Source: an uncultured Bacillota bacterium (GTDB lineage Bacteria; Bacillota_I; Bacilli_A; RFN20; CAG-826). From it: a DNA stretch of 64,000 nucleotides. The stretch is taken from the NCBI GenBank assembly GCA_949293555.1, contig CASFDV010000003.1, positions 7,614-71,613 of the forward strand. Direction: 5' to 3'. Every line of letters begins with the position of its first letter. The stretch's first letter is position 1. Shown piece after piece: positions 42,377 to 57,948 of this stretch. Under the pieces are notes generated by a model, which ran no database searches, was not told the origin of the DNA, and saw nothing but the letters and a program-made list of their open reading frames with translations. A program made the translations under genes and the position numbers.

Positions 42377-42412
42377 CCCTGGGCTGAGGCCTAGGCGCCC
42401 AGGCATTTTTTT
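42377..42412 (+). terminator. Rho-independent terminator after tRNA-Thr
   Basis: CCTGGGC...GCCCAGG stem followed by a T7 run. Confidence 0.7.
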
Positions 42413-42626: not shown

Positions 42627-43940
42627 CTACCTTTCTCTCAGCCAGTCCTTGATGAAGAAGGCGCAGAAATGGGGGAGCGTCAGGACTTTGCCGCAGTAGG
42701 AGATGTTCTTCCTGGTGATCTTGATTCCTTCGGATATGTCCCCGTATTTCGGGTTGGCGATCGCTTCCCGGAGGCTATAGGCGTTGCCGTCCTTGCTCTT
42801 GACTTCCACCGGGACGATCCCGTCCTTGGTCCTGAGGACGAAATCCAGCTCCAAGGTGGAATCGGGCCTCTTGTAGTAGTAGAGGTCCAGCCCGCTTTTG
42901 CTCAGGCATTCCGCCACGGAATTCTCGAAGACGGCCCCTTTGTACACCCCGAAGTTCTTCCTGACCCGGAAGTCCTCCCCGCTTTCCGGGTCCAGGAGGG
43001 AGAGGAGGAGGCCTGTGTCGAAGAAATAGACCTTGAAGGCGTTTGGCACGGTGTTGCCTCGCAAGGGGATCTCGGGAAAGTTCAAGAGCCGGGAGGGGGT
43101 GACGAGCCCAGCGTCGCGAAGCCATTCGATGCATCCGAAGTAGTCGGCGAACCTTCCTCCCTTCCGGACGTGGGAGAAGACGAATTTCTTGTTCTCCTTG
43201 CCAAGCTCCGGGGCGATCGAGTCCATCACGCCGATGATTCGCTCTTGGTCCAGGCCGCCAGCGTATTTCCTGACGTCCGAGCGATAGCCGCCGATGAGTC
43301 CGTTTTGGAGTTCCGGGATGCCTTGGAAGTTTCTCCGAGCCAGATAGGACGATATGACGGCAGGCATTCCGCCAACGACCATGTAGTCGAAGAACAGGCT
43401 TTCGTATGCATCAAGCTCGTTCTCGGAGAAAGGGGACATCGCTTTCACGTGCTGGCGCATGTCCTCTGCCGTTTCCTCGCCATGGCCGCACGCCCAGAGA
43501 AACTCCTCGAAATCGAGGGAGGTCATCTTCCGGATCGTCTGGTAGCCGACGCTGATGCTTTCTATCCTGGAGAGCTGAACCCCGAGGAGAGAGCCGCTGC
43601 ATATGACGTCGTACCTTCCGTCCAGCTTGAAAAACTTGAGCGAGGATGTGATTTCGGGACAAGCTTGTATTTCATCGAAAAAGATGAGCGTCTTGCCCGG
43701 GACGAAGTTGAACGCGGGATTGACGAGGGACATGTTCCTGACGATTTTGTCCGGAGAATAGCCGTCGCCTACGATCCGGGAGAAAAGAGGATTCTCCGCG
43801 AAGTTGACGTAGGCGAGGCTTTCGTAGTTTTCCTTGGCGAACTTAAGGATGCTTTCCGTCTTTCCGACTTGCCTTGCCCCGGTGACGATCAAGGGCAGCT
43901 TGTCGGGGGCGGACTTCCATTCGAGGAGGTACATGTCCAC
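42627..43940 (-). CDS. AAA-family ATPase with DUF4143 domain (second copy in window)
   Basis: Walker A motif TGARQVGKTE and Walker B motif LIFFDEIQ. Lower GC than the core genes. Confidence 0.7.
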   Translation of the reverse strand: MDMYLLEWKSAPDKLPLIVTGARQVGKTESILKFAKENYESLAYVNFAENPLFSRIVGDGYSPDKIVRNMSLVNPAFNFVPGKTLIFFDEIQACPEITSSLKFFKLDGRYDVICSGSLLGVQLSRIESISVGYQTIRKMTSLDFEEFLWACGHGEETAEDMRQHVKAMSPFSENELDAYESLFFDYMVVGGMPAVISSYLARRNFQGIPELQNGLIGGYRSDVRKYAGGLDQERIIGVMDSIAPELGKENKKFVFSHVRKGGRFADYFGCIEWLRDAGLVTPSRLLNFPEIPLRGNTVPNAFKVYFFDTGLLLSLLDPESGEDFRVRKNFGVYKGAVFENSVAECLSKSGLDLYYYKRPDSTLELDFVLRTKDGIVPVEVKSKDGNAYSLREAIANPKYGDISEGIKITRKNISYCGKVLTLPHFCAFFIKDWLRER

Positions 43941-44801
43941 ATTTTTCTGAGATATATATTTCCGGCCTTCCGCTTGATTAATCAGTACACGTACTAAGAT
44001 TGTCGATGACGGATATCAACAGAAACAAGGGCCATGTCTATGTTGAAAACTACAGAAACAAGGGCCTTGTTTGTGAGAAGGCGCTCGGAATCTCGTACGG
44101 ACGAACCTCGTAGGAAATAGGAACCCAAGCAGCCTCGCAGCATCCGGCTCTCTCCATCAGCGCGCTGCCTTCCGTCTCCCCGTAGCCCCTTTGGCCAGCT
44201 CGCTAAATTTCCTTGCAGGGCTCCTTCTGGCTTTCTTGGAAGCAAATCCGGCAAGGTCCCTGCTCTGTCTTACAGTCCTCTGTCTGCGGAGGCCGTTCCG
44301 TCGTTGCACAAGGCTCCGTGCACTCCAAGGCAATCTTGCGTTCCCCACAATAGAGTGTCGCATGAACCCTGCGTTTCCCGCAATAAAACGTGTGCCAGCG
44401 CCGCTGACGTATGGGAAGCAGATCCGGTTCTCGACGGAGGAACCCTGGAGAAGAGGGACGTCCCGGTGTCGCTCCCCTGCCACAAGGCGCCCGGGAGGCC
44501 GAGGGTGAGGTGCTGGAGGGGGTCTAGTTGAACATTGCGAAGCGAGACAATTGGGATCCTGACGTCCTACTAGGCACGTCTGGACGAGAATCAGCTCGCT
44601 CTCGGAAGCTATGTAGCCTTCTGCGGAACTTCCGGCGCAAAGCTCCTCAGTCCAAGGAGACGTCAGGGGCGCTATCTTTTTTTCATGCGCTTCCTCTTAT
44701 TTCACTTGGGAGGAGAGTGGCAATTGCCACCTATCTCTCAAATCCCATTAAAGGAATCGCGTATATATCAGAATTTCTAGGATCGTTCTTGAAGGCCTTC
44801 C

Positions 44802-45350
44802 CTATCGGAAAAGAAGGCTGAGGGAACCGACGATGATCTCGCGGAGGGAAAGCCCGATCTCAGTGCCCGTCCTCCTCATCGCCTCCCTCTGCACGTCGAT
44901 CGGATAGGCGATCGGGTAGTAGCCGTACATCATGGTGATGAAGGAGGCGGCGAGGATGTCCGCGTCCCTCTCCCTCCCGCATTCCCTTGCCAGGCTCCTG
45001 AAGGCGGTCTGGAACCGCTTCAGCTCGCCTTTGAGGACGACGAGGTTCTCCAGGGAGGAGGAGCGCTCGATGTCCTCGAGGCCGCAGGACATGATCTTGA
45101 GGATGATGACGTTCTCCTCCAGGAGGCTCGCGATGGAGGAGATGATCCCCTCCTTGGTGGAAAGCCCCTTTCCCACGAGCCTTTCCAGCCCGTCGTCCAG
45201 CTCCACGAAGTGGTTGTAGAGGGAATCGAGGAGGATCTCCTCCTTGCTCCTGTAGTAGGAGTAGATCGCCGTCCTCGAGATGCGGGTCATCGCCGAGACG
45301 TCCTTGAGGTAGATGGACCGCAGCTCCTTCTTCAGGTAGAGCGCGTCCAT
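44802..45350 (-). CDS. TetR/AcrR-family transcriptional regulator
   Basis: N-terminal HTH in VSAMTRISRTAIYSYYRSKEEIL. Start at MDALY; the listed ORF has 55 aa of spurious extension. Confidence 0.7.
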   Translation of the reverse strand: MDALYLKKELRSIYLKDVSAMTRISRTAIYSYYRSKEEILLDSLYNHFVELDDGLERLVGKGLSTKEGIISSIASLLEENVIILKIMSCGLEDIERSSSLENLVVLKGELKRFQTAFRSLARECGRERDADILAASFITMMYGYYPIAYPIDVQREAMRRTGTEIGLSLREIIVGSLSLLFR

Positions 45351-45356
45351 CGCGCA

Positions 45357-45596
45357 AGGTCCGGGGGAGGGCAGATCCTCCTTTGCACCGACGGGGAAGG
45401 CTGGTGCCAGGAATGGGGGAAGGAGGCGCGGAAGCTCCATCCCGGCGACGTCGTCCTCATCGCCCCCGGCGCCAAGCACTGGCACGGGGCGAGCAAGGAC
45501 GAATGGTTCGCCCACCTCGCGATCGAGGTGCCGGGGGAAGAATGCTCGACCGAGTTACTCGATCCCGTCTCGGACGAGGAGTACGGGAGGCTCTAG
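45357..45596 (+). pseudogene. Cupin-domain gene remnant (C-terminal ~80 aa only, no start codon)
   Basis: The frame encodes GWCQEWGKEARKLHPGDVVLIAPGAKHWHGA..., a cupin_2 core. No ATG is present, and the N-terminal part would lie under the TetR gene. Confidence 0.45.
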
Positions 45597-45642
45597 CGGG
45601 CCTCCCTTTTCGCAGGGAGCCCGGGGAATGTAGACTGGCCCC

Positions 45643-46776: not shown

Positions 46777-47829
46777 ATGGAACGGGAGCGACCTTCTTTC
46801 TACAATTGCCCTATGGAAGAAAGGCTTCCCACCTACATCGCCCAGTGGACGATGGTCCTCCGGGGCATGCAGGTGGACAACACCTACAAGTGCGCTTGGG
46901 CCCGTGCAATCCTTTCCTGCCTCGGGAAGGGACGCTTCATGCAACTTCCCCCTGACGGGAAGGCGATGCTCCATTTCTCCGACATCGCCAAGGAGATGGT
47001 GAGGCTCTACTGGAACCAGACCTGCTTCTTCCACCTCCGTCAGGCGCCGGAGAAGAGAGGCCAGAGGGGTGCGCTGATCGTCTCCTACGTCGAGGACCTC
47101 ATCGAAAGCTACTATGCGCTCCTCGGGACCAGGAGGCCCTCCTGGTGGAGCGAGGCGGAGCCTCTCCTCAAGGAGGAGAAGGGGCTCCTCGAGAAGACGT
47201 TCCGCGAAGTCGGGAATGTCCTCCCCCAGAACGTCGCCCATCGCTTCCTGAACCTCAAGGGGAGGAGGGACCCCCTGCCCCTATACGAGTACCGGAGGCC
47301 CGAGAAGGCTATCTATTTCGCCTCCTGGCAGGTCGGGCTCCTCATCTCCTTCCGCGAGCTCCTCGAGGATGAGGTCGACCTCCGCTGGGCGGAGATCCTC
47401 GAGAGGTTCAACGGATCGCCGAGGATTGCGAGGAAGGTCGTCGCAGCCTCGAACGAGGAGCTGAGGAGAGGAAGCCTCAAGGAGTTCAAGGACGTCATCC
47501 AGGACGCCTACCGCCGGGTGAGGATCCCTGATTTCTACGAGGAAGGGTCCTATGTCCCTCTCGACGACTTCTCCCTCGACCACGTAATCCCGTGGAGCTA
47601 CCTTTACTCCGACGACATCTGGAACCTCGTCCCGACGAGGAAGGGGAATAACTCCGCGAAGGGGGACTCCCTCCCGGGAAAGGAGGACATCGTCCGCCTC
47701 AAGAGGAGGAACCAGGACCTCCTTCCCCGCCTCAGGGGGATGAAGGGGATGGAAAAGCACGTGGGCGCCCTCCTTTTCGCTGAGGAGAACCATCTCGTCG
47801 ACCTCTACTACGGGGGATGCCTCCTGTGA
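46777..47829 (+). CDS. HNH-endonuclease-domain protein (351 aa) with an uncharacterised N-terminal region
   Basis: C-terminal HNH motif DHVIPWSYLYSDDIWNLVPTRKGNNSAKGD. Start at MERERP, which has a GGGAG RBS. Confidence 0.55.
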   Translation: MERERPSFYNCPMEERLPTYIAQWTMVLRGMQVDNTYKCAWARAILSCLGKGRFMQLPPDGKAMLHFSDIAKEMVRLYWNQTCFFHLRQAPEKRGQRGALIVSYVEDLIESYYALLGTRRPSWWSEAEPLLKEEKGLLEKTFREVGNVLPQNVAHRFLNLKGRRDPLPLYEYRRPEKAIYFASWQVGLLISFRELLEDEVDLRWAEILERFNGSPRIARKVVAASNEELRRGSLKEFKDVIQDAYRRVRIPDFYEEGSYVPLDDFSLDHVIPWSYLYSDDIWNLVPTRKGNNSAKGDSLPGKEDIVRLKRRNQDLLPRLRGMKGMEKHVGALLFAEENHLVDLYYGGCLL

Positions 47830-48383
47830 GCGGCTTCTACGAGGAGAACGCGGAGTTCTACGTCCAGGGCACCTTCCATCTCGACATGGAGGGGACGAGG
47901 AGGAAGTTCCTTTCCTACGTCCCCGAGGGAGGGAGGATCCTCGACCTCGGGTTCGGGTCGGGAAGGGACATGCTCGCCTTTAGGGACGCTGGCTACCAGG
48001 TGGTGGGGATCGACCCCTGCCTTCCTTTCGTCCGGAGAGCAAGGTCCCTGGGGATGGAGGCGCTCGCCCTAAGGGCGGAGGACATGCCCTTCGTAAACGA
48101 GTTCGACGGAATCTGGGCCTCTGCCTCCCTCCTCCATTCGGAGGATCTCCCGAAGGCCCTGGGGAAGTGCCATAAGGCCCTTAGGGAAGGAGGGGTCCTC
48201 TACTGCTCCTTCAAGAAGGGAAGCTTCCGGGGGATGAGGGACGGGAGGTTCTACGCCGACATGGAGCCCTCCACCTTGGAGCAATCCCTGAAGATAGCGG
48301 GTTTCTTCCCTCTTTCGGTATGGACAAGCGAGGATTCCCTTAGGCCGGGCCTCTTCTGGACGAACGGGATGGCCCGTAAATAG
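47817..48383 (+). CDS. Small class I SAM-dependent methyltransferase
   Basis: Motif I ILDLGFGSGRD. No DPPY/NPPF DNA-methyltransferase motif. Overlaps the HNH gene by 13 nt. Confidence 0.65.
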   Translation: MPPVSGFYEENAEFYVQGTFHLDMEGTRRKFLSYVPEGGRILDLGFGSGRDMLAFRDAGYQVVGIDPCLPFVRRARSLGMEALALRAEDMPFVNEFDGIWASASLLHSEDLPKALGKCHKALREGGVLYCSFKKGSFRGMRDGRFYADMEPSTLEQSLKIAGFFPLSVWTSEDSLRPGLFWTNGMARK

Positions 48384-48439
48384 ACATTCGTTATACATTA
48401 AAAAAATTCCGATGAAATCGTCGTTTTTTGCACGTCATC

Positions 48440-48465
48440 TTGAAAAATCAAGGGGGGGGTATTCT
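48440..48465 (+). promoter_or_regulatory. Candidate promoter with a G8 homopolymer in the spacer (TTGAAA-N14 including G8-TATTCT), upstream of the defence operon
   Basis: G8 lies at 48452-48459 between -35-like and -10-like hexamers. The spacer is currently 14 nt, which is sub-optimal. Confidence 0.3.
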
Positions 48466-48505
48466 TCCTTTGTTTTTTGGAGGTTTCGGGAGAGTGGGAG
48501 GCAAG

Positions 48506-50692
48506 ATGGCGGAGACGAATCTTCGAGACGTGCTCGGTCTTGGCCATGACTATTCGAATACGCCAGACACCCCTATCGCGGATTACGTTTTGAATCCGTG
48601 CCTCAGGGAGGCTAAGTCCTTCGACGCCCTATTCGGCTTTTTCTCAAGCGAGTCCTTGATTGCGATCTCTCCCGGGCTGGAGACCTTCTTTTTCCATGGA
48701 GGGAAGATCCGCCTAGCGATATGCGCTTTCGTCAAGAAAGAGGACGTAGCGGCTATCCAAGAAGCCTACGAGGACAAGGAAAGATTCCAGGCGTCTTTTT
48801 CCGAAGCCGAGAAGCGTCTGCTGAAGGAACTCAGGAAGGCCGCCGAAGAGAACCCTGACTCCGTTTCCTTGCTCCGCGAGATGATTGCGGCGAATCGGTT
48901 GGAAATCATAGCCGTCGGACCCTATATGTCGTCGGGCCTGATGCACCAGAAGATCGGAGTATTCGAAGATTCGCATGGGAATTGCGTATCTTTCAGCGGA
49001 AGCTCGAATCTTACCGGAAGCGCGATCACGAGTATCAAAGGGGTGTGGAACTATGAGGACCTCAAGGTGTTCCGGTCCTGGGAAGTTGGAGAAGACAAGT
49101 ACTGCTTTTCCGATAGGAAGAAAGTCCAGGCCGCGTTTTCGGGTGAGGATCAATGGCTCGAACGAAGGGAGCTTAGTGCGATTGTCAGGGAATGCATTGA
49201 TTCCATCCCTGCCGTCTCGCTAAAGCGAAGCTCAGCAAGCGTTCCTTCGTCTGGGCAATCTTCAAGCGTTAAAGAGGATATAGGGGTTGGCTATCTATAC
49301 GACTATCAGAGAAGTGCCGTCGACAGGTGGTTTGAGATGGGTTGCCGTGGCTTCTTCATGATGGCGACTGGCACAGGGAAGACGAGGACGGCACTGGCCG
49401 CGGTCAAGGAATATTGGGAGAAGGGGAGGAACGCCATTGTTGTGGTCGCCGTCCCTCTTCTGGCCCTGGCCGACCAATGGGAAAGGGAGATTGAGCATTG
49501 GCTAGGCGTTCGGCCGATCATGTGCAATTCAAAGAACCCCCAGTGGCGAGAGGAGGTGCAAAGCGCCTTGTCCGGAAGGAGGTTCCGCAACAAGGACGCA
49601 AGGACGGTCCTCTTGGTCACGTACCACTCTAAGAAAAAACTTGAAGCCCAGCTTCGAAACTACCCTAGCGAGAAGTGCCTTCTTCTTGCCGATGAGGCTC
49701 ACCACATCGATCCCGATTGGCTTGAGCAGGCGAAATTCTTCGGCCCTTGCATAGGCTTGAGCGCCACCCCCGGGACGGGAATGCCCGGGGACGAGCTTGG
49801 TCCGCGGATCATCAGGGACTTCGGAGGACTCGCTATCTCCTTGTCGCTTGAGGAAGCTCTCGAGAAGGGCGTGCTTGTTCCATATGACTACTACCCGCTC
49901 TTCTGCCATCCCAACGACAAGGAAGAGGAGAAGTTCCGTCACTACACGCAGCTTATCGCCGCGGCCCTTCAGAGTTCCGATCCGAAGAAGAAGGAAGATT
50001 GCTCTAGGCTTATTCGCCTTCGTTCCCAGGTCGTTGCCAATTGCAGTGACAAGATTTCGCGCCTTGGCGAGTTTATTCAATCTGTAGCGAAAGAAGATCT
50101 CGACCATCTGCTTGTCTATTGCGGAGCGGGGGACATCTATGGCGGAAACATTGCCGAGGAAGAACGCTTCATCTCCTTCGTTCATAAGAAGCTGAAGGAA
50201 ACGTTGCCATGGCTGATCGTCTCCCCGTTCACCAGCCGCGAGGATAAGGTCGAGCGGACTTTGATTTTGAGAGGATTTCAGGAAGGGACGATCAACGCCA
50301 TAACTGCGATTCGCTGCCTAGACGAGGGAATCGACCTTCCCTCTATCCGTGCCGCCCTTATTCTCGCAAGCGGTTCGACTCTTCGGGAGTTCATCCAGCG
50401 GAGGGGCCGAATCCTTCGTCTTTCGAAAGAGACGGGCAAGGATCATGCCTCAATCTATGACGTGGTTTGCCTCCCCCAAGGTGCGGACTGTCAGGCCCTG
50501 GCCCGTTACGAGCTTAGGCGTTTCTATGAGTTCGCTAGGAGCGCTAGAAATTGGGAGATGGGCCTTAAGGATCGTTTGGAACATTACTTGGTTCATTACG
50601 GTCTTGGGACTATTGAGGAAGCCTTCTTTGGCAAGGAGGACGATTTCGTGATGGAGAAGATACAGATGGAAGGAGACGAAGCGGATGCCTAG
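48506..50692 (+). CDS. PLD-family (HKD) nuclease domain fused to an SF2 DEAH-box helicase
   Basis: N-terminal HKD motif LMHQKIGVFED...SGSSNLTGSA. Helicase motifs MMATGTGKT (I), LLADEAHH (II) and QRRGRILR (VI). RBS GGGAGG before the MAETNL start. Confidence 0.75.
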   Translation: MAETNLRDVLGLGHDYSNTPDTPIADYVLNPCLREAKSFDALFGFFSSESLIAISPGLETFFFHGGKIRLAICAFVKKEDVAAIQEAYEDKERFQASFSEAEKRLLKELRKAAEENPDSVSLLREMIAANRLEIIAVGPYMSSGLMHQKIGVFEDSHGNCVSFSGSSNLTGSAITSIKGVWNYEDLKVFRSWEVGEDKYCFSDRKKVQAAFSGEDQWLERRELSAIVRECIDSIPAVSLKRSSASVPSSGQSSSVKEDIGVGYLYDYQRSAVDRWFEMGCRGFFMMATGTGKTRTALAAVKEYWEKGRNAIVVVAVPLLALADQWEREIEHWLGVRPIMCNSKNPQWREEVQSALSGRRFRNKDARTVLLVTYHSKKKLEAQLRNYPSEKCLLLADEAHHIDPDWLEQAKFFGPCIGLSATPGTGMPGDELGPRIIRDFGGLAISLSLEEALEKGVLVPYDYYPLFCHPNDKEEEKFRHYTQLIAAALQSSDPKKKEDCSRLIRLRSQVVANCSDKISRLGEFIQSVAKEDLDHLLVYCGAGDIYGGNIAEEERFISFVHKKLKETLPWLIVSPFTSREDKVERTLILRGFQEGTINAITAIRCLDEGIDLPSIRAALILASGSTLREFIQRRGRILRLSKETGKDHASIYDVVCLPQGADCQALARYELRRFYEFARSARNWEMGLKDRLEHYLVHYGLGTIEEAFFGKEDDFVMEKIQMEGDEADA

Positions 50693-50894
50693 GCGTGAGG
50701 ATAAAAACGAAGTCAGCCAGGCCGCTGCAGCCCAATTGCGCGAGGGCGCTTTGTCGGAGGCGAAAGATATTCTTGCCTCTCCGCAGGTCAACCTCAGCAT
50801 GAAGAAAGCAGCAGCCCAGAAGCTTTATCAGACGGCTCTCAAGCTTGCAGAAGTCGAGCTCGCAAAAGAGGAGGACTCTGTGGATGCTGATTGA
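50685..50894 (+). CDS. Small (69 aa) predicted helical protein, translationally coupled between the helicase and ATPase genes
   Basis: AAGGAG RBS. Its ATG overlaps the upstream TAG stop, and its own stop overlaps the ATPase start. Confidence 0.45.
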   Translation: MPRREDKNEVSQAAAAQLREGALSEAKDILASPQVNLSMKKAAAQKLYQTALKLAEVELAKEEDSVDAD

Positions 50895-52959
50895 GAAGGT
50901 CTGGGCGGAGAATTTTAGAAACTTCCGTAAGTTTGGAAGGCGCGACCGCCCAATTCGTTTTAATACTGACGGCAAAGTCAACTTGATTTACGGGAAATCC
51001 GGCTTTGGGAAAAGCACTATCCTTCAGCTTCTCCAATGGATTCTCTATGGAAGATGCGAGTTTTCTGAAGACGATCTGGTCAACAGCGGGGTTAGGAAGG
51101 ACGCCGATATTGGGTCCGATGTCACTCTGTACGGGTCTTTGACCATCTTGGTGGATGGGATTCGTTATTACATTCAACGTCGTTGGCTATTCTTGAAGCA
51201 GCCCGGTGGCGGTTTGCGCAGGAAGAAGAAAAAGGATAAGAACGACCAAGAACACCCTGAAGAGTATTTCACTATTGAGAAAGAGAACCCCGATGGGAGC
51301 GCCACGCCGATTCAAGGCGAGAAAGGGGATGAGGGGCGGGAGTTTATCGATCGAATCATGCCCCAGGGGCTTGCTGGCTACTTCTTCTTTGACGGCGAAC
51401 AGTTCATAGATCGGTTTGAAGACAGCAAAAACTCAAATGGGAAGAGACTGAAGGAAGCGATCGCGACCTTGTTTCAAACGGATGTTTATAACGTTGCGAA
51501 AGAACTTCTTTCAGGATCTGCGTGGTCGGTTTCGGGCATGTTGGATAAAGGGCTAAGCGAAGCGAGATATTCCGGCTTCAAAGGCCTGGAAGAGGCTCGC
51601 GAGGCTGAGGAGCAAGCAAAAAACTCTTTTCACAGGGCGGAACAGATGTGCGAATTGCGGAGGCAGGAAGCAAAATCCGAACAGAAAGAGATGCTTGTCC
51701 TTTCCGAAACGCTTAAGGACATCCCTAACCAGGAAGATTTGAAGAGGCGGATTAACGATTTAGAGAAGGAACAGGAGTCGTTGCGGAGGCAGTATGACGA
51801 CCTTCTTCTTAAGATTGCCGCTTCTGCTAGGTCCCATTTCATGTCCTTTGCCGTTGCCAAGAATGTCGTTGATGCCGTAAGGATGAAACCGGATGAGATT
51901 GGCGACCAGGAAGTGCCGGCCTCGTTGACCAAAGAACTTATTGAATGCCTAGAGGAAAAGGAAGAATGCATTTGCGGCCACCGTATTGGGAAACTGGAGA
52001 GAGAGCAGTTGGAACGATGGCTTACAGCGCTCCCTCCAGCATCCTATCGACCGACATACGATTCTTATCTCGAGCGGAAAGACTCAGCAGTGGAGCATGA
52101 ATTGGAGCGGGGATTCCGCGACTTGCACAGCCTCGTGGAGGAACTGGTCGCCAAAGAAGAACGAATTAGAGTCTTGGCCAACAAGCTCAAGGAGGCCTGG
52201 GAGCGGCAGCGGGCGGGTTTTGATGCCGATGCCGAAAGCAAATGGAAAAGGCTAAGGGCGCTTCAGGAGAAAGTTAAAAAGACCAACGATTCTATTGGTG
52301 AGTTATCTGCGGAGGCCGATCGAAAGAAACACATCTGGGAAGCGGCAAGGAAACGTTTTGATGAGGCCTTAAGGCAGGCGAACATCGCCCGAAAGGAGCG
52401 CTATGCCCTTTCGTTGTCCAACGAGGTCGCCGAGCTTTTTGAAGCACTCGCCAAGCAACGTACCTTAAATGTCCGAACGGATCTCCAGCAAGCGATCGAA
52501 GAGTACCTCAACAAAATCCTTGTAGGAGCCGTAAAGACCGCTGAGCTAAGCGAGGATTTCAAGCTTACGATCCGCGAGGGGGATATCACTTACAAGTCGA
52601 GAGGCCAGGCCGCAGTCGCCTGCTATAGCTATGTCCTTGGCATCCTCGCGGTTCTTAAGCGTTTCCGGGATCGCCATGAGGATGACATCCTTGACCTCTC
52701 CGACGAATACCCACTTGTCATCGACGCCCCTTTCAGCGAGACCGACAGGGAGCAGACCCTGCATGCCCTTTCCTATTTCCGTGAGATTCCTAAGCAGATT
52801 GTCCTTATGTCCAACCGCGACCTGAACGACATGGTCGAAGAAGTGGACGCGGGGACCATCTATGTCATTAAAGGCGTAGGGGTGGACGCCTTCATCGAGG
52901 AATGCTCTTACGAGGATGTGGATCGCTACTTTGCCGAGGGTGGCGAGAAGGAGGACTAG
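50884..52959 (+). CDS. SMC/RecF-like AAA ATPase (AAA_23-type N-terminal Walker A with coiled-coil middle), DndD paralogue-like
   Basis: VNLIYGKSGFGKSTILQLLQWILYG P-loop, a long coiled-coil, and C-terminal Walker B/D-loop (LVIDAPFSETD). RBS AGAGGAGGA. Confidence 0.7.
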   Translation: MLIEKVWAENFRNFRKFGRRDRPIRFNTDGKVNLIYGKSGFGKSTILQLLQWILYGRCEFSEDDLVNSGVRKDADIGSDVTLYGSLTILVDGIRYYIQRRWLFLKQPGGGLRRKKKKDKNDQEHPEEYFTIEKENPDGSATPIQGEKGDEGREFIDRIMPQGLAGYFFFDGEQFIDRFEDSKNSNGKRLKEAIATLFQTDVYNVAKELLSGSAWSVSGMLDKGLSEARYSGFKGLEEAREAEEQAKNSFHRAEQMCELRRQEAKSEQKEMLVLSETLKDIPNQEDLKRRINDLEKEQESLRRQYDDLLLKIAASARSHFMSFAVAKNVVDAVRMKPDEIGDQEVPASLTKELIECLEEKEECICGHRIGKLEREQLERWLTALPPASYRPTYDSYLERKDSAVEHELERGFRDLHSLVEELVAKEERIRVLANKLKEAWERQRAGFDADAESKWKRLRALQEKVKKTNDSIGELSAEADRKKHIWEAARKRFDEALRQANIARKERYALSLSNEVAELFEALAKQRTLNVRTDLQQAIEEYLNKILVGAVKTAELSEDFKLTIREGDITYKSRGQAAVACYSYVLGILAVLKRFRDRHEDDILDLSDEYPLVIDAPFSETDREQTLHALSYFREIPKQIVLMSNRDLNDMVEEVDAGTIYVIKGVGVDAFIEECSYEDVDRYFAEGGEKED

Positions 52960-53484
52960 ATGAACAACAGCCAGCCAATTTCAAGTTCCATCGTCCTTTA
53001 TGGCGCACCTTGGCATGAGGCCAGGGCAAAGTTTTGCCAAAACAAAGGGAACGGCATCCTCTTCGAGACTGCCGCCGAGCTGTTCATCTTTTGCTCGGCG
53101 ATAGGGGTGCGAATCGGCTCTCCGACCGAACAATTTCCACCGGATGAGGAAAACCCGCAAGGCGTCGAGGTTCCTTATACGGTCCTTGAGCGGCCAAAGA
53201 ACAAGGATTTTCTTAGCGACCTCTACGCGACTGTTTTGTTTAACCGGTGGATTGAACCAAAAAAGACAGACATTCAGCGTCTGGAGGTGATTTTCGAGAA
53301 GGGTGCTCCCTCTGACCGCCACAAGATCCTTGAGCCCTATGCGCGGACAGGGGTCCTCCACCTTCTCGAATACACGAAGGACTTTGTGAAGGAATGGCCC
53401 CTCATTGAACGAGTGTGGTCGGATCTTGCGGAACTCTACGAAGAACCGCGCATCCTTGGAGGGGAAGATTCTTCAGAGGAATGA
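52960..53484 (+). CDS. Hypothetical 174-aa protein of the defence operon
   Basis: ATG lies immediately after the ATPase stop codon. Its stop overlaps the dndC start (ATGA). No recognisable motif; weak resemblance to DndE only. Confidence 0.5.
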   Translation: MNNSQPISSSIVLYGAPWHEARAKFCQNKGNGILFETAAELFIFCSAIGVRIGSPTEQFPPDEENPQGVEVPYTVLERPKNKDFLSDLYATVLFNRWIEPKKTDIQRLEVIFEKGAPSDRHKILEPYARTGVLHLLEYTKDFVKEWPLIERVWSDLAELYEEPRILGGEDSSEE

Positions 53485-54860
53485 CGATGACAGAGGATGG
53501 TCGCCTTTCCGTCTTTTCGTCCGTCCTCGAGGACATGGAGAGGGTGTACCTCCACGACCAGAGGCCCTGGATGATCGGCTATAGCGGGGGCAAGGACTCC
53601 TCTCTTTTGACGATGCTCGCCTTCGAGATGCTCCAGAAGATCCCGGAAGGCAAGCGTTGGAAACCGATATACGTGGTTTCCAGCGATACTCGCCTTGAGA
53701 ACCCGGTCGTCTCCCTCTACATGCATGCGTCCAACCGGAAGATCGGACGTTACGCCCATGAAAACAATCTCCCGGTCATCTCGGAAATCATCTATCCCAA
53801 GGACGAAGAGACGTTCTGGACCCTCGTGATCGGGAAAGGCTATCCGACCCCGGAGCCTCCGGGGTTCCGCTGGTGCACCGAGCGTTTGAAAATCAATCCG
53901 ATGAACCGTTTCGTCGACGGGATCATCCAGGAGCATGGCGAAGTCGTCATCCTCCTGGGAGTCCGCAAGGGCGAGTCCGGGACGAGGAAGAGGAGCATCG
54001 AGTCCCGCGAGATCGAGGGGCGGCTTCTCCAGCATCACGAGACTCTCCCCAAGGCGTGGGTATTCAATCCTCTCACGGAGGTCCCTAACGACCTTGTCTG
54101 GCCCTATCTCCTGAAAGGGGATGGAATCGCCCCTTGGGGGACCGACCTTAAGAAGCTTTACGCGATGTATCGCGGGGCCGACCTTTCCGAGGAGCAGTCC
54201 GTGATCGGGCAGGTCGACATCTCGAACATGCCGGTCACGGGGAACAGCCGCTTCGGGTGCTGGTGCTGCACCATCGTGAAGGAGGACAAGTCCCTCGCGA
54301 ACTTCATCGCGAAGGGCGCGAACGAACTCGCTCCTCTGAGGGATTTCCGGAACTGGCTCGTCTCGATCCGGCAGGACCCCGCCTACCGGGAGAAGCATCG
54401 GGCGAACGGGAAGGTCTACAGGAAATCGGACGGGGAAGTCGGGCTTGGCCCTTTCACCCTGGACGCGAGGGAGGAGATCCTGCGGAGGCTTCTCGCCCTT
54501 CAAAAGAGGACCGGCTTCTCGCTCATATCGGAAGGAGAGCTCCGCCTCATCGATCGCGCCTGGGAGGACGAGGGGGATTTGTCGCGCCGGCGCCTTGTGG
54601 ACGCCTACCGTGACGTCATGGGGAAGAAGCTTCCATGGGACGAGGAGAAGCGCGCCCTGATGGACGAGGATTTCCTCAGGGAGCTTGAGGATTTGTGCGA
54701 TAGGAACGGCCTTCCGTTCGAGGCCATCGGGAAGGTCCTCATGGCGGTCGAGAAGGGGAGGGTCGGGAAGACCAGGGATGCCCTCCGCAAGTCTGCGAAG
54801 AGAATTCTTTCCCAAGAGTATCTCCATCAGGACGCGCTGAGGGAGGGGGAGGAAGCATGA
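53481..54860 (+). CDS. dndC: DNA phosphorothioation protein DndC (PAPS-reductase-like PP-loop ATP pyrophosphatase)
   Basis: PP-loop motif MIGYSGGKDSS, conserved NSRFGCWCCT cysteine motif, about 460 aa. Directly followed by dndD and dndE. Confidence 0.8.
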   Translation: MTMTEDGRLSVFSSVLEDMERVYLHDQRPWMIGYSGGKDSSLLTMLAFEMLQKIPEGKRWKPIYVVSSDTRLENPVVSLYMHASNRKIGRYAHENNLPVISEIIYPKDEETFWTLVIGKGYPTPEPPGFRWCTERLKINPMNRFVDGIIQEHGEVVILLGVRKGESGTRKRSIESREIEGRLLQHHETLPKAWVFNPLTEVPNDLVWPYLLKGDGIAPWGTDLKKLYAMYRGADLSEEQSVIGQVDISNMPVTGNSRFGCWCCTIVKEDKSLANFIAKGANELAPLRDFRNWLVSIRQDPAYREKHRANGKVYRKSDGEVGLGPFTLDAREEILRRLLALQKRTGFSLISEGELRLIDRAWEDEGDLSRRRLVDAYRDVMGKKLPWDEEKRALMDEDFLRELEDLCDRNGLPFEAIGKVLMAVEKGRVGKTRDALRKSAKRILSQEYLHQDALREGEEA

Positions 54861-56953
54861 AGATTCTCGCCGCGGAAATCGAAAACTTCGGCCCCTACGT
54901 CGGGCGCACCCGCTTCGACCTTTCTCCCGAAGGGACCATCCGCAGGATTGTGCTTATGGGAGGGAAGAACGGAGCGGGCAAGACGACTTTCTTCGAGTCG
55001 CTCCGGCTTGCGCTTTACGGTCCGAAGGCGTTCGGCCTTGCCGTCAGGAACGCCAAGTACGGTAAGAAAGTCGCCTCCCTCGTCAACAAGCGCGTGCTCC
55101 GGGAAGGGAAGGCGCGGGCCTCGGTCGCCGTTTCCCTTCGCCTTGAGGACGGGAACCATGAGAACGGATCCTATCGGCTCGATCGTTCCTGGGAAATCGA
55201 GGGCAAGGACGTCAGGGAAACCCTCAAGGTGTCCTTCAAGCCGGATAACGGGGACGAGAGGCTCCTTGGCAGGGAAGAGGAACAGGACTTCGAGATGACG
55301 CTTGAGTCCCTCTTGCCCTTGTCGCTTTTCCCGTTCTATTTCTTCGACGGGGAGAAACTCACGGACTTCTTTCTGGACGGCAAGGGCTTCCGCGAGACCT
55401 TGATCGCGATGACCGGGCTGGAGAGCCTCGACATGCTCGTCTCGATCCTTGGCGACCTCGCGAAGAAGGAGGGGAGGGCGAAGGACGCCGGGAGGCGGTT
55501 CGAAAAGGCGGAGAAAACCTATCTTTCCCTTAAGTCGAAATGGGATGCCCTCCGCGAGGAACGGGATGCCCTGAAAGAGGAAATCGAGAAAAAGGAAGAG
55601 GATTTCCAGGAATTTCAGAAGGAATTCCTTAGAAAAGGAGGCCTTTCCGTGAAGGCAAGGCGCGCCCTTGAGAAAGAAATAGAGCATGAGACGGAAGAAA
55701 GGGAGAGGAAGCGCGTGGAGCTCAAGGCCTTTGCGAACACGCATCTCCCTCTCCTCATCATGGAACGACAGGTGCGGAAGGCGCTTGAGGGGGCCGATTC
55801 CTCCCGTTCCGCCTTCCTTGTCCGGGAGATCAAGAAGGCCGCGGAGGAGCGAGGGGTCCTCCCTCTTATTTCCGAGCAGCTCGGTCCCGAAGGACTCGAC
55901 GGGCTCCTTAGGTCCATCTTCGGGGAGGAGGCGCTCAAGGGGGAAGGCGCAGGCTTCTACCGCCCCTCGCCGGAAGAACTTTCTCGCATTCATGAGCAAT
56001 TGGCGGAGGCTAGGTCCGCCGACCTTGGCTATTTCAAGGCGATCGAGGAAGACATCTATGGCTCCATGTCGATGCAGCGGGGGATACGGGAAAGGCTCAA
56101 AGGAGTTTCCGAGGAAGGAGAGAGGGCGCTTGAGAAAGAGCGGAAGGAACTGGAGAAGTTCCGCTTCTCTGTCCTGAGGAAGATCAGGGAGAAAGAAGAT
56201 TCCCTGGAGGCGCTCCTTCCCGATTTCCTTAAGGCGGAGGCGGAATATCGCTCGGCTTCCAAGGAGAGGGACGACCGGCTGAGGGAAGAGTCCGCGCACA
56301 GCCTTGCCGCGAAGGCGCACCTTGTCCTCGCGGAGTTCGAACGCCATCTTTTCGCGAAGCAGGTGGATCGGCTGAAGGACTCCTTCCTCTCCATCTTCTC
56401 TTCGATCATCAACAAGGACGGCCTTGTCGACGGGCTTGAAGTCGATTCCATGCTCCGCGTCTACCCCGTTCTTTCCGAACAGGTATCCCTGGGGGAGATG
56501 GCGCGCCTCCGCGAGGAGCTGGGAGAAGCCGAGTTCGAAGAACGATACGGGGAGGCTGCCCTTTCCATGACCTATCTTGAGATGGATGAAGAACAGGTCC
56601 GGATGCCACTCAAGGTAAGCGGGATGTCCGCCGGGGAGAGGCAGGTGTATCTATTCGCTCTCTACGGGGCCCTTGCCACGATCGCCGACCACCGGATGCC
56701 CTTCCTCATCGATTTCCCGTTCGGCCGGGTCGATACCGTCCACCGCATGGGCATGGTGGACCATTTCTTCCTTTCCCTTCCCGGGCAGGTCGTCATCCTT
56801 TCGACGGACGAGGAGGTGCAAGGGGCGCTTCTGGAGGAGATGGACCCCTTCATCGCGAGGTCCTACACGATCGAGAGCAAGGGGGACGGGACTAGCCGCG
56901 TTCTCGAAGGCGTCTACTTCGGGAAGGAGGTTCCTTATGGGAAACAGGCTTAG
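54857..56953 (+). CDS. dndD: DNA sulfur modification protein DndD (SMC-like ATPase)
   Basis: Characteristic N-terminus MKILAAEIENFGPY...IVLMGGKNGAGKTTFFESLRLALYGP, long coiled-coil, C-terminal ABC signature/Walker B (GMSAGERQ, PFLIDFPF). ATGA overlap with dndC. Confidence 0.85.
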   Translation: MKILAAEIENFGPYVGRTRFDLSPEGTIRRIVLMGGKNGAGKTTFFESLRLALYGPKAFGLAVRNAKYGKKVASLVNKRVLREGKARASVAVSLRLEDGNHENGSYRLDRSWEIEGKDVRETLKVSFKPDNGDERLLGREEEQDFEMTLESLLPLSLFPFYFFDGEKLTDFFLDGKGFRETLIAMTGLESLDMLVSILGDLAKKEGRAKDAGRRFEKAEKTYLSLKSKWDALREERDALKEEIEKKEEDFQEFQKEFLRKGGLSVKARRALEKEIEHETEERERKRVELKAFANTHLPLLIMERQVRKALEGADSSRSAFLVREIKKAAEERGVLPLISEQLGPEGLDGLLRSIFGEEALKGEGAGFYRPSPEELSRIHEQLAEARSADLGYFKAIEEDIYGSMSMQRGIRERLKGVSEEGERALEKERKELEKFRFSVLRKIREKEDSLEALLPDFLKAEAEYRSASKERDDRLREESAHSLAAKAHLVLAEFERHLFAKQVDRLKDSFLSIFSSIINKDGLVDGLEVDSMLRVYPVLSEQVSLGEMARLREELGEAEFEERYGEAALSMTYLEMDEEQVRMPLKVSGMSAGERQVYLFALYGALATIADHRMPFLIDFPFGRVDTVHRMGMVDHFFLSLPGQVVILSTDEEVQGALLEEMDPFIARSYTIESKGDGTSRVLEGVYFGKEVPYGKQA

Positions 56954-57314
56954 GACGTCCCTTCATACGAAGAAGGTGTTCGACGAGGTGAGGAACATCA
57001 GCCGCCTCCAGCCGTTCGCTCTTTCGAAGATCGCCCTCGCCTTGTCCATTCGCATGGAAACCCCCTTGTCGGAGGAAGACTTCAAGACAGATAACGAGGG
57101 GCTTGAGCTGGCAAGGGAAACCGTATGCGGACCGTATGATTCCCTCTTTTCCATGGTCGTGTGCGAGGACGCTGGGAAGGCGATCGCGGACTCGGAAATC
57201 TTCTCCACCTATTTCAAGGCCCATATCGACCGGGGCGCGAAGGAACTGGAGAAGGAGTTCCGTTACGACAAGAGGCTTTTCCGTCGCCTCATCGGCCTGA
57301 AGGATTCGATCTAG
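56937..57314 (+). CDS. dndE: DNA sulfur modification protein DndE
   Basis: 125 aa, immediately downstream of dndD with a 17-nt overlap. RBS GGAAGGAGG. Sequence pattern ISRLQPFALSKIALALSI...FKAHIDRG is typical of DndE. Confidence 0.7.
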   Translation: MGNRLRTSLHTKKVFDEVRNISRLQPFALSKIALALSIRMETPLSEEDFKTDNEGLELARETVCGPYDSLFSMVVCEDAGKAIADSEIFSTYFKAHIDRGAKELEKEFRYDKRLFRRLIGLKDSI

Positions 57315-57381
57315 CACTGCTTTGATATCGCCTTTTCAATACAAGGCAAATCAACGTATCTACGGTTTTTTATAACTAAAC

Positions 57382-57432: not shown

Positions 57433-57948
57433 CTAGAGGAAGAGGAACGCCTCGGCCTGGAGGGCGAGTAGCCCTATGAGGAGGGCGGGCACCGCGACCA
57501 TGAGGCCTTCCCTCGTGAAGCGAAGGAAGGTGAGAGGGGCCCCTTCCTCCCTTACCTTCTGGAGGAACATGAGCCCAGCAAGGGCCTCGAAGGGGGTGAG
57601 ATAGGCGGCGAGGTTCGAGGAAAGGATGACCGCGTAGGGGGCAAGGGCCTCGTAAGGGGCGGACAGGAACACTTCCTCGAAGAGGACGGACATGGGGATG
57701 TTGTTCATGAGGTTCGCCAGGAGCATCGACCCGAGCCCGTGGCTCCAGATCGAATAGCCCTCCTGGTTCAGGTTCCCCGCGAGGAGGGAGGTGATCCCCT
57801 GCTCGTCCAGGGCAAGGACGACGACGAACATTCCGAGGAGGAGGGGGAGGAGGGAATAGGGAAGCCTCCCGCTGGAGAAGGGCCTGACGCTCCCCTCGAT
57901 CGACCTCGGCTTCCTGGAGGTGGGGTCCACCACCTTCTTCTGGATCAT
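57433..57948 (-). pseudogene. C-terminal fragment (171 aa) of an ArsB/NhaD-family permease; N-terminal part missing and replaced by lgt on the opposite strand
   Basis: Only the C-terminal hydrophobic segments are present. The ORF start overlaps the lgt start region. Confidence 0.4.

What the first reader, a model, noticed from the sequence alone, without database searches (positions are those of the whole stretch)
48506..57314. Seven-gene co-directional operon: PLD-nuclease/helicase fusion, SMC-like ATPase and two small proteins, followed by dndC, dndD and dndE — candidate new phosphorothioate-linked defence system
dndC, dndD and dndE homologues are unambiguous from their motifs (SGGKDS PP-loop and GCWCC; ENFGPY...GGKNGAGKTT; DndE-like 125 aa). 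They are the last three genes of a single unit in which every junction overlaps or abuts (ATGA or 11-17-nt overlaps). Three things are unusual. (1) There is no dndB regulator, no dndA or iscS cysteine desulfurase, and no dndFGH or sspE restriction gene in the window. (2) Upstream in the same transcript lie a PLD(HKD)-nuclease N-terminally fused to a DEAH helicase, a second SMC-like ATPase, a 69-aa protein and a 174-aa protein. None of these corresponds to the domain architecture of DndF, DndG, DndH or SspE; the pbeABCD and sspFGH modules could not be compared from memory. (3) The modification genes and the putative effector genes are co-transcribed, not divergent. The nuclease-helicase plus ATPase module is a plausible phosphorothioate-sensing restriction or effector partner. 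The 174-aa protein may functionally replace DndB.
Basis: partly seen in the sequence, partly recalled or inferred. Interest (0 to 1): 0.9.

Follow-up and report, generated by a model that had tools for sequence, protein, structure and literature searches.

The report
Known PbeABCD–DndCDE phosphorothioate defence operon
The seven genes are real and form one tight operon, but it is a compact bacterial copy of the phosphorothioate DNA-marking system DndCDE joined to its already described partner PbeABCD, not a new defence system.

Summary
Seven co-directional genes at 48506-57314 overlap or abut at every junction, and the last three are dndC, dndD and dndE. Gene 1 matches the PADLOC PbeA model over its full length (E 1e-157). 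Gene 3 matches PbeC (E 8e-54) and carries the family's CxC motif. The 69-aa and 174-aa genes sit in the PbeB and PbeD positions, a layout kept in about 60 related loci. A profile of the 174-aa protein finds almost only PbeD-position genes. So this is pbeABCD-dndCDE: Pbe was shown to be antiviral in archaea in 2019 and was re-annotated in 2024 as an HKD nuclease-helicase, a small protein, a CxC ABC ATPase and a DndE-like protein. Absence of dndB is normal for this type, and absence of dndA is common. The pbe-before-dnd order also occurs elsewhere. The 174-aa protein is PbeD, not a DndB substitute. Two points go beyond the finding. First, the Pbe half diverges faster than the Dnd half, and a sister strain has deleted pbeABCD, dndC and half of dndD. 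Second, an upstream gene pair encodes an HNH nuclease whose N-terminal fold best matches phosphorothioate-binding (SBD) domains, plus a small methyltransferase. That pair is a separate module that mostly occurs without dnd genes.

The parts
48506..50692 (+). pbeA: an N-terminal HKD (PLD-family) nuclease domain fused to an SF2 DEAH helicase, 728 aa
   Evidence: PADLOC PbeA PDLC02707, E 1.1e-157, covering 7-666 of 672 profile positions. TIGR04095 'DNA phosphorothioation system restriction enzyme', 1.5e-94, on residues 264-686, below its 600-bit cutoff. Pfam ResIII and Helicase_C. In a 28-sequence alignment the family-invariant residues are all present: H147, K149, D155, S166, N168, Walker A G289-T293, D396-E397-H399, S419-A420-T421, Q631-R632...R635...R638.
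50685..50894 (+). pbeB: a small, fast-evolving A/E/K-rich protein, 69 aa
   Evidence: It has no family hit. It lies between pbeA and pbeC, where 63 related loci carry an ORF that is mostly 45-91 aa. The archetype PbeB is 66 aa and is essential. It is 67% identical in L001 and 31% in L003, with only a weak shared L-S-x-K patch.
50884..52959 (+). pbeC: a CxC-type (Zn-hook) ABC ATPase, paralogous to DndD, 691 aa
   Evidence: PADLOC PbeC, 7.9e-54, covering 7-634 of 651 positions, versus DndD models at no better than 3e-14. Pfam AAA_23. It has Walker A GKSGFGKST and a C-I-C motif in 'EEKEECICGHRIG' at mid-protein. A mid-protein CxC motif is present in most related PbeC proteins.
52960..53484 (+). 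pbeD: a 174-aa partner of PbeC, reported in the literature as a DndE cognate
   Evidence: It has no direct Pfam, NCBIfam, PADLOC or PDB hit. A profile of its eight relatives finds, among 6,895 ORFs of related loci, 42 hits. Of these, 37 are the ORF immediately after pbeC and the other 5 lie just beyond an inserted gene. Three of the 71 PbeD-position proteins scanned hit the PADLOC PbeD model. The profile-profile comparison with DndE is weak but specific. The low-confidence AF2 model shows two strand-helix-helix units.
53481..54860 (+). dndC: PP-loop ATP pyrophosphatase / sulfurtransferase, 459 aa
   Evidence: TIGR03183, 375 bits, above the 290.4 cutoff. PADLOC DndC, 4e-123. Pfam PAPS_reduct. 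SGGKDS and GCWCC motifs are present. Its start overlaps the pbeD stop (ATGA).
54857..56953 (+). dndD: ABC/SMC-like ATPase of the modification complex, 698 aa
   Evidence: TIGR03185, 318 bits, above the 245.85 cutoff. PADLOC DndD, 7e-99. Walker A GKNGAGKTT is present.
56937..57314 (+). dndE: DNA-binding partner of DndD, 125 aa
   Evidence: PF08870 DndE, 64 bits, above the 25-bit cutoff. TIGR03184, 42.6 bits, below its 71.85 cutoff.
48384..48505 (+). AT-rich intergenic region upstream of pbeA, the likely operon boundary and promoter region
   Evidence: It is 122 nt and AT-rich. It contains terminator-like hairpins with T-runs at 48410-48423 and 48449-48472, and a GGGAGG ribosome-binding site before the ATG. 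These are consensus matches only. No sigma-70-like promoter was called on the + strand.
46813..47829 (+). Neighbouring gene, not part of Pbe/Dnd: a 338-aa nuclease with an N-terminal SBD-like winged-helix domain and a C-terminal HNH domain
47817..48383 (+). Neighbouring gene: a small class-I SAM methyltransferase (188 aa) that overlaps the HNH gene by 13 nt
   Evidence: Pfam Methyltransf_11/25/23. The nearest solved relatives are uncharacterised small-molecule-type methyltransferases. A homologous gene lies directly next to the HNH homologue in 24 of the 85 loci counted, which include L088 and L093; in L091 the pair overlaps by more than the adjacency cut-off used and was not counted.

Best explanation
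This is a bacterial DndCDE-PbeABCD phosphorothioate (PT) restriction-modification-like defence system packed into one translationally coupled operon, pbeA-pbeB-pbeC-pbeD-dndC-dndD-dndE.

How it most likely works (inferred from the families and from published work on homologues):
- DndC, DndD and DndE take sulfur from a housekeeping cysteine desulfurase encoded elsewhere in the genome. They replace a non-bridging phosphate oxygen with sulfur at a short sequence motif in host DNA.
- The CxC-type ABC ATPase PbeC, with its DndE-like partner PbeD, scans DNA.
- The HKD-nuclease/SF2-helicase PbeA translocates on DNA that lacks the host PT mark, and it blocks replication of that DNA, probably by cutting it.
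- The small PbeB is an essential accessory or regulator.

Shown here: the identity, order, integrity and conservation of the seven genes, and the presence of all catalytic motifs.
Taken from the literature on the Haloterrigena system: the antiviral effect, its PT dependence and the need for all four pbe genes.
Not tested: PT in this organism's DNA, the PT motif, and the actual biochemical action of PbeA.
For: Family assignments: PbeA 1e-157 and PbeC 8e-54, both full length; DndC, DndD and DndE above curated cutoffs. Catalytic and structural motifs are intact, including the HKD, helicase, Walker A and CxC motifs. The A (~700 aa) - B (45-91) - C (~650-700, CxC) - D (115-230) layout recurs in about 60 related loci from many phyla. 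The gene 4 profile recovers PbeD-position ORFs almost exclusively. The PbeD family aligns with the DndE family at P 7e-4 over 112 colinear columns, against P 0.64 and 0.46 for two controls. The same seven-gene operon is conserved in L001 (PbeA 81% identical) and in L003 (47% identical, different flanks). Literature: dndCDEA-pbeABCD reduces plating of virus SNJ1 about 10^4-fold, needs PT and all four pbe genes, has PbeB of 66 aa and PbeD of 152 aa, and lacks DndB (PMC6459918). PbeA is an HKD nuclease plus SF2 helicase, PbeB a small disordered protein, PbeC a CxC ABC ATPase and PbeD a DndE cognate (PMC10853773).
Against: Genes 2 and 4 have no direct hit to any library model. Their assignment rests on position, size and my own profile search. 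The PbeD-DndE relationship is below normal significance here: hhalign probability is 26%, no PbeD-position protein hits Pfam DndE even at E<=1, and the AF2 model of gene 4 has pLDDT 47. No dndA or iscS lies in the 64-kb window, so the sulfur donor is assumed. The window's PbeA clade is only about 30-34% identical to the other PbeA proteins found. The mode of action of Pbe is disputed in the literature: one paper saw no DNA cleavage and another predicts HKD cleavage or suicide. About 58% of pbeAC pairs occur without dndCD, so PT dependence is not universal for the family.
Confidence: 0.88

Rival explanations
1. One reading: the first four genes are a previously undescribed PT-sensing effector module, which would make this a new defence system.
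For: Genes 2 and 4 match no library model. PbeA scores below the TIGR04095 cutoff. The clade is distant (30-34% identity) from other PbeA proteins.
Against: There are full-length, very strong PADLOC PbeA and PbeC matches. Gene order, sizes and the CxC motif are identical to the described system. Gene 4 is homologous to PbeD-position proteins.
Confidence: 0.03
2. The Pbe (CxC-ABC) module is a self-contained counter-invader or abortive-infection system that does not read PT. In this reading dndCDE is simply fused next to it ('mix and match'), and PbeA cuts DNA, possibly self DNA, when PbeB is removed by a phage trigger.
For: The 2024 reappraisal argues this for the family. About 58% of pbeAC pairs lack nearby dndCD. 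Many of my surveyed loci have pbe without dnd. The Pbe and Dnd halves evolve at very different rates (67-82% versus 96-97% identity between the window and L001), and the literature reports poor co-evolution (rho 0.107). The HKD catalytic residues are intact.
Against: In this clade pbeD and dndC overlap (ATGA), and the seven genes stay together across 47%-identity divergence and a change of genomic context. The only experimental test of a linked system found strict PT dependence.
Confidence: 0.12
3. The real unit is nine genes: the upstream SBD-like HNH nuclease and the small methyltransferase are functional parts of the PT system, for example as its PT-reading nuclease.
For: The pair lies directly upstream of pbe-dnd in the window, in L001 and in L003, where both the flanks and the pair's internal order differ. 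The N-terminal fold is closest to PT-binding SBD domains. wHTH(SBD)-HNH nucleases are known to sit in dnd loci.
Against: An AT-rich gap with terminator-like hairpins separates the pair from pbeA. A sister strain keeps both genes intact while pbeABCD, dndC and the 5' half of dndD are deleted. L001 keeps pbe-dnd but has an in-frame stop before the HNH domain. None of 80 metagenomic loci with relatives has DndC, DndD or DndE nearby, while about a quarter have the methyltransferase. The SBD sulfur pocket was not verified.
Confidence: 0.1
4. The modification half is inactive or decaying because dndA and dndB are absent, so the operon is a remnant.
For: No cysteine desulfurase or DndB was found in the window. 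A sister strain shows that the locus can decay. Truncated DndD variants exist in the population.
Against: All seven ORFs are full length with intact motifs. DndC, DndD and DndE are 96-97% conserved against L001, more than the flanking DNA at 93-94%. From general knowledge of the E. coli B7A system, housekeeping IscS can replace DndA. Most linked loci surveyed also lack an adjacent dndA.
Confidence: 0.07

Closest known systems
DndCDEA-PbeABCD of Haloterrigena jeotgali A29 (Xiong et al. 2019, Nat Commun 10:1688, PMC6459918)
   Same: It has the same four-gene pbe cassette in the same order: a ~700-aa PLD/helicase, a ~66-aa protein, a ~650-aa AAA_23 ATPase and a ~150-aa protein. The cassette is linked to dndC, dndD and dndE, and there is no dndB and no dndFGH.
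   Different: The window's system is bacterial. pbe lies upstream of dnd, not downstream. All seven genes are translationally coupled in one unit. No dndA is adjacent. Its PbeA is only about 30-34% identical to the PbeA proteins outside its own small clade that were found here; identity to the archetype itself was not measured.
CxC ABC ATPase-DndE-anchored systems (the 2024 reappraisal of Dnd systems, NAR 52:1005, PMC10853773)
   Same: The components match: an HKD endoDNase fused to an SF2 helicase, a small disordered protein, an ABC ATPase with a CxC Zn-hook, and a divergent DndE cognate. The paper also describes such systems placed in tandem with a canonical DndD-DndE system.
   Different: This example has no cytosine methylase or MTaX1 gene. 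The DndE-likeness of PbeD could be reproduced here only weakly.
DndBCDE-DndFGH and SspABCD-SspE/SspFGH PT defence systems
   Same: They use the same logic: a PT modification module paired with a module that excludes unmodified DNA. DndC, DndD and DndE are homologous.
   Different: No DndB, DndF, DndG, DndH or Ssp protein is present. SspD matches only weakly, through the shared PAPS-reductase fold. The effector proteins are unrelated.
SBD-HNH type IV PT-dependent restriction enzymes (ScoMcrA, SprMcrA; Hga has an SBD with a PD-(D/E)XK domain). This comparison applies to the neighbouring HNH gene only.
   Same: It has a C-terminal HNH nuclease and an N-terminal winged-helix domain whose best structural matches are SBDs bound to PT-DNA.
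   Different: No sequence similarity to the known SBDs is detectable. There is no SRA domain. It is paired with a small SAM methyltransferase. The sulfur-pocket residues were not verified.

Membership tests
Dnd PT modification module (DndCDE) | DndC: a PP-loop ATPase that matches TIGR03183 above its cutoff, with SGGKDS and the Cys cluster | tested here: met
   375 bits against a 290.4 cutoff. YSGGKDSS and FGCWCC are present.
Dnd PT modification module (DndCDE) | DndD: an ABC/SMC-like ATPase that matches TIGR03185 above its cutoff | tested here: met
   318 bits against a 245.85 cutoff. Walker A GKNGAGKTT is present.
Dnd PT modification module (DndCDE) | DndE: matches PF08870 or TIGR03184 | tested here: met
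   PF08870 scores 64 bits against a 25-bit cutoff. TIGR03184 scores 42.6 bits, below its 71.85 cutoff.
Dnd PT modification module (DndCDE) | A cysteine desulfurase (DndA or IscS) is available as sulfur donor | tested here: not met
   None was found in the 64-kb window. The rest of the genome cannot be seen. This gene is not required to be adjacent, and most surveyed loci also lack it nearby.
Dnd PT modification module (DndCDE) | PT dinucleotides are present in genomic DNA | not testable with these tools
   This needs LC-MS/MS or iodine cleavage.
PbeABCD / CxC-ABC system | PbeA: an HKD nuclease domain fused to an SF2 helicase | tested here: met
   PADLOC PbeA, 1e-157, full length. The invariant HKD and helicase motifs are present.
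PbeABCD / CxC-ABC system | PbeB: a small (~50-90 aa), fast-evolving ORF between pbeA and pbeC | tested here: met
   The ORF is 69 aa and overlaps both neighbours. The same position is occupied in 63 loci. This is positional evidence only.
PbeABCD / CxC-ABC system | [quoted passage not shown] | tested here: met
   PADLOC PbeC, 8e-54. A C-I-C motif lies at mid-protein, as in most relatives.
PbeABCD / CxC-ABC system | PbeD: a ~115-230 aa protein directly after pbeC, homologous to other PbeD proteins | tested here: met
   The profile search finds PbeD-position ORFs almost exclusively. The window protein itself does not hit the PADLOC PbeD model, but 3 of the 71 PbeD-position proteins scanned do.
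PbeABCD / CxC-ABC system | PbeD has a DndE-like (double ribbon-helix-helix) fold | tested here: inconclusive
   hhalign gives probability 26% and P 7e-4, with clean controls. There is no Pfam DndE hit. The AF2 model has pLDDT 47 and a strand-helix-helix x2 pattern.
PbeABCD / CxC-ABC system | PT-dependent block of virus replication | not testable with these tools
   This is known only for the H. jeotgali system.
DndFGH / SspE / SspFGH restriction modules | DndF, DndG, DndH, SspE or SspFGH proteins are present | tested here: not met
   No PADLOC, NCBIfam or Pfam hit was found in the operon, its neighbours or the other large ORFs that were scanned.
SBD-HNH PT-dependent type IV restriction enzymes (neighbouring gene 46813-47829) | A C-terminal HNH nuclease domain | tested here: met
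   HNH_4, 8.9e-8. The DHVIPWS...N...N motif is invariant in the family.
SBD-HNH PT-dependent type IV restriction enzymes (neighbouring gene 46813-47829) | An N-terminal sulfur-binding domain fold | tested here: inconclusive
   [not shown]
SBD-HNH PT-dependent type IV restriction enzymes (neighbouring gene 46813-47829) | A hydrophobic sulfur pocket (a central Pro plus methylene or methyl groups, as described) | not tested
   No residue-level superposition was available. The invariant residues Y25-K26 and P109 are candidates by inference only.

The most novel reading that the evidence does not exclude
The HNH protein upstream, with its SBD-like N-terminal fold and its recurrent small SAM-methyltransferase partner, could be a previously unrecognised and very divergent two-gene module that senses PT or another backbone or base modification. 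In this clade it would travel with pbe-dnd. The island would then both exclude unmarked DNA (through Pbe) and attack DNA carrying a foreign mark (through HNH), with the methyltransferase playing an unknown role.
Probability: 0.12. Interest if true: 0.6.

Novelty: new member of a known kind. Interest (0 to 1): 0.22.

Why it matters
For the finding itself, the result is mainly a correction: the operon should be annotated as PbeABCD-DndCDE, not flagged as a new system. It has some practical value. It is a compact seven-gene bacterial version with no DndA or DndB, every gene is translationally coupled, and natural variants exist (a sister strain with a deletion, and alleles in which the Pbe half has diverged while the Dnd half is nearly unchanged). 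That makes it a convenient candidate for reconstituting Pbe, whose mode of action is still disputed: a replication block without cleavage, or cleavage by the HKD nuclease. The neighbouring HNH-methyltransferase pair is the only element here that might hold something new.

Tried and rejected
- Direct library searches for the 69-aa and 174-aa proteins (Pfam, NCBIfam, PADLOC, PDB sequences) found nothing.
- A word-indexed search for relatives of the 174-aa protein found 3. An exhaustive HMMER search of 1.84 billion representatives found only 7.
- AF2 on the 174-aa protein with a 3-sequence alignment gave an unusable model (pLDDT 47).
- A profile of 71 PbeD-position proteins found no solved relative in the PDB, and none of the 71 hits Pfam DndE.
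- I looked for a repeat of the tRNA-Thr 3' end that would mark an integrated element. None was found.
- The source organism could not be named. The genome scan did not return the source, and no source name is attached to any protein cluster.
- The idea that the HNH-methyltransferase pair belongs to the system was rejected as the main reading, for the reasons given under the rival explanations.
- DndB replacement by gene 4 was rejected, because gene 4 is PbeD.
Full report
**1. Observation**

The + strand between 48506 and 57314 carries seven ORFs of 728, 69, 691, 174, 459, 698 and 125 aa. Successive junctions are -8, -11, 0, -4, -4 and -17 nt, and most starts are preceded by purine-rich Shine-Dalgarno-like sequence. 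The same gene calls are on record for identical contigs in public assemblies. GC content is 0.49-0.56 in the first half of the operon and 0.62-0.67 in most flanking sequence.

**2. Identity of the last three genes**

- Gene 5 is DndC: TIGR03183 at 375 bits (cutoff 290) and PADLOC DndC at 4e-123.
- Gene 6 is DndD: TIGR03185 at 318 bits (cutoff 246).
- Gene 7 is DndE: PF08870 at 64 bits (cutoff 25); it falls below the stricter TIGR03184 cutoff.

**3. Identity of the first four genes**

Gene 1 matches the PADLOC PbeA model over its whole length (E 1.1e-157, positions 7-666 of 672). It also matches NCBI's 'DNA phosphorothioation system restriction enzyme' helicase model TIGR04095 (1.5e-94, below its cutoff). 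Gene 3 matches PbeC over its whole length (7.9e-54), far better than it matches DndD models (3e-14).

The paper that defined Pbe (PMC6459918) describes a four-gene cassette next to dndCDEA in Haloterrigena jeotgali: PbeA with PLD and helicase motifs, PbeB of 66 aa, PbeC with an AAA_23 domain, and PbeD of 152 aa. All four were needed for a roughly 10^4-fold, PT-dependent reduction in plating of virus SNJ1. DndB and DndFGH were absent. Viral DNA was not visibly degraded. The authors found pbeAC in 235 bacterial genomes next to dndCD.

A 2024 reappraisal (PMC10853773) re-annotated the parts: PbeA is an HKD endoDNase plus SF2 helicase, PbeB is a rapidly evolving small disordered protein, PbeC is a 'CxC' Zn-hook ABC ATPase (a sister clade of DndD), and PbeD is a DndE cognate. 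That paper notes that such systems often sit in tandem with canonical Dnd genes.

The window fits this description point by point:
- A 28-sequence PbeA alignment shows that the invariant residues are all present in the window protein: H147, K149, D155, S166, N168, the Walker A, DEAH and SAT motifs, and motif VI.
- PbeC carries C-I-C in 'EEKEECICGHRIG' at mid-protein.

**4. Survey of related loci**

I used the PbeA alignment to fetch 80 loci from species-representative genomes, and added two orthologous loci. About 60 of them have the same layout: A of about 700 aa, a 45-91-aa ORF, an ABC ATPase of 650-700 aa that usually has a CxC motif near residue 340, and then a 115-230-aa ORF.

Gene 4 has very few detectable relatives: 3 by word search and 7 among 1.84 billion representatives. 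A profile built from them, searched against all 6,895 ORFs of the loci, returned 42 hits. Of these, 37 are the ORF directly after pbeC. The other five lie just beyond an extra gene inserted there. Three of the 71 PbeD-position proteins scanned hit the PADLOC PbeD model. Gene 4 is therefore PbeD, and gene 2 is PbeB by position and size, with a weak shared L-S-x-K patch.

I could reproduce the published claim that PbeD is DndE-like only weakly:
- No PbeD-position protein hits Pfam DndE, even at E<=1.
- The profile finds no solved relative in the PDB.
- The AF2 model from three sequences is poor (pLDDT 47), although it shows two strand-helix-helix units.
- hhalign of a 62-sequence PbeD alignment against a DndE alignment gives probability 26%, P 7e-4 and 112 colinear columns covering nearly all of DndE. 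A reversed DndE control gives P 0.64, and a PbeB control gives P 0.46.

I treat this as suggestive, not shown.

**5. Are the 'unusual' points unusual?**

- No dndB. This is a stated property of the archetype.
- No dndA. By a motif test, only 4 of 23 loci where pbeA and dndC are linked have a desulfurase-like gene next to them. Housekeeping desulfurases are accepted substitutes (general knowledge; discussed).
- Co-directional order. pbe followed by dnd on the same strand occurs in L006 (Lachnospiraceae), L009 and L035 (actinomycetes), and L025, L055, L069 and L076 (cyanobacteria). dnd followed by pbe occurs in L042, L059 and L085. Convergent arrangements occur in about ten loci.

What is particular to the window's small clade (window, L001, L003) is the direct coupling of pbeD to dndC with nothing in between. 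In the nearest outside relative, L006, a DGQHR (DndB-like) gene sits there. This is a compact arrangement of a known system, not a new kind.

**6. Mechanism**

The best-supported model comes from the cited papers and from established knowledge of Dnd. DndC, DndD and DndE, with a housekeeping cysteine desulfurase, place PT at a short motif in host DNA. PbeC and PbeD scan DNA. PbeA translocates on unmarked DNA, and blocks or cuts it. PbeB is an essential small partner or regulator.

Here I show only that all parts are intact and conserved. Whether PbeA cleaves DNA is open. Xiong et al. saw no degradation, while the 2024 analysis argues from the conserved HKD site that cleavage, or even suicide, is likely. 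The window protein keeps that site.

**7. Population context**

The locus lies in a variable stretch that begins after a tRNA-Thr gene (42280-42353). I found no repeat of the tRNA end.

Against L001 (same flanks, 93-94% DNA identity) the protein identities are: HNH 82.5, methyltransferase 81.9, PbeA 81.5, PbeB 66.7, PbeC 78.1, PbeD 92.0, DndC 96.5, DndD 96.8 and DndE 96.0%. The exclusion half therefore changes much faster than the marking half. This agrees with the poor DndCD-PbeAC co-evolution reported in the literature.

In a sister strain (L091, downstream flank 97.7% identical), pbeABCD, dndC and the first 361 codons of dndD are replaced by unrelated sequence. A dndD 3' fragment and dndE are left behind. 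Truncated DndD variants are also on record.

**8. The two genes upstream**

These genes lie outside the finding's coordinates. A 338-aa HNH protein (46813-47829) and an overlapping 188-aa class-I SAM methyltransferase (47817-48383) precede pbeA. A 122-nt AT-rich gap with terminator-like hairpins lies between them and pbeA.

The pair accompanies pbe-dnd in L001 and in L003, where the flanks differ and the order of the two genes is swapped.

Sequence searches, including a profile search, see only the Cas9-type HNH domain, as does Foldseek. The SBD sulfur pocket is a central proline plus methylene and methyl groups (PMC10602919). I could not check it residue by residue. The invariant residues Y25-K26 and P109 are candidates by inference only.

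Several results argue against this pair being part of the Pbe-Dnd machine:
- L091 keeps both genes intact without dndC.
- L001 keeps pbe-dnd but has an in-frame stop before the HNH domain.
- L088 has the pair in a defence island that has no dnd genes.
- None of 80 metagenomic loci with relatives has DndC, DndD or DndE nearby, while about a quarter have the methyltransferase directly adjacent.

I read the pair as an independent module, possibly a modification-dependent one, that shares the island.

**9. Rest of the window**

No DndFGH, Ssp, DndB or desulfurase gene was found among the large ORFs that were scanned.

**10. Verdict**

The sequence feature is real and intact. It is a divergent, compact bacterial member of the DndCDE-PbeABCD (CxC-ABC) family. 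Interest is low to moderate. The only lead with some novelty is the SBD-like HNH plus methyltransferase pair next door.

Noticed in passing
[not shown]
   Followed up: partly
L091:6560-9700 compared with window 48394-57324: A sister strain (downstream flank 97.7% identical) has lost pbeABCD, dndC and the first 361 codons of dndD. Unrelated sequence with a radical-SAM-like ORF takes their place. It keeps the dndD 3' fragment, dndE, and intact HNH and methyltransferase genes.
   Followed up: yes
L001:8303-9319: In the relative that keeps an intact pbe-dnd operon, the HNH gene has an in-frame stop codon (…AYR*VRIPDF…) just before the HNH catalytic domain. Across four genomes, two have lost one or the other module and two keep both. 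This is too few to infer antagonism.
   Followed up: partly
window 46813-57314 compared with L001: Divergence is uneven within one syntenic island. HNH, the methyltransferase, PbeA, PbeB and PbeC are 67-82% identical, PbeD is 92%, and DndC, DndD and DndE are 96-97%. Flanking DNA is 93-94% identical. PbeA is least conserved in residues 1-250, with about 42% identity in the block 201-250.
   Followed up: partly
L046, L047, L051, L054-L058, L060, L063, L065, L067-L069, L071, L075, L076 (mostly cyanobacteria): In these loci the match to PbeA starts only at query residue ~264, so they match only the helicase part (the same part that TIGR04095 models). Four of these loci carry a Uma2-family nuclease gene inserted between pbeC and pbeD. 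This looks like a swap of the nuclease component.
   Followed up: partly
window 57433-57948 (-): The ArsB/CitMHS-type permease gene downstream of dndE is only 171 aa here, against 436 aa in L001. It appears truncated at the edge of the island.
   Followed up: no
window 42280-45600: A tRNA-Thr gene is followed by a lower-GC stretch (0.55) with an AAA_14/DUF4143 ATPase gene (42627-43940, -). Sister genomes carry different content here, including an IS (rve) transposase in L091. It looks like a variable hotspot. No tRNA-derived direct repeat was found.
   Followed up: partly
window 8888-11809 (+), 14913-16289 (-), 30101-31375 (-): Other possible defence-related genes lie far from the operon. One is a 973-aa UvrD-type helicase with two topoisomerase-type zinc ribbons (GajB-like helicase core, 2.6e-39). 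One is an ATPase_2/DUF234 protein that hits PADLOC candidate PDC-S27 (2e-31). One is a Schlafen AlbA_2 / HATPase_c_4 protein.
   Followed up: no
window 24257-26077 (+): A two-HKD PLD-family protein (PLDc_2, PLDc, PLDc_N). It looks like a cardiolipin-synthase-type enzyme and is unrelated to PbeA's single HKD domain.
   Followed up: no
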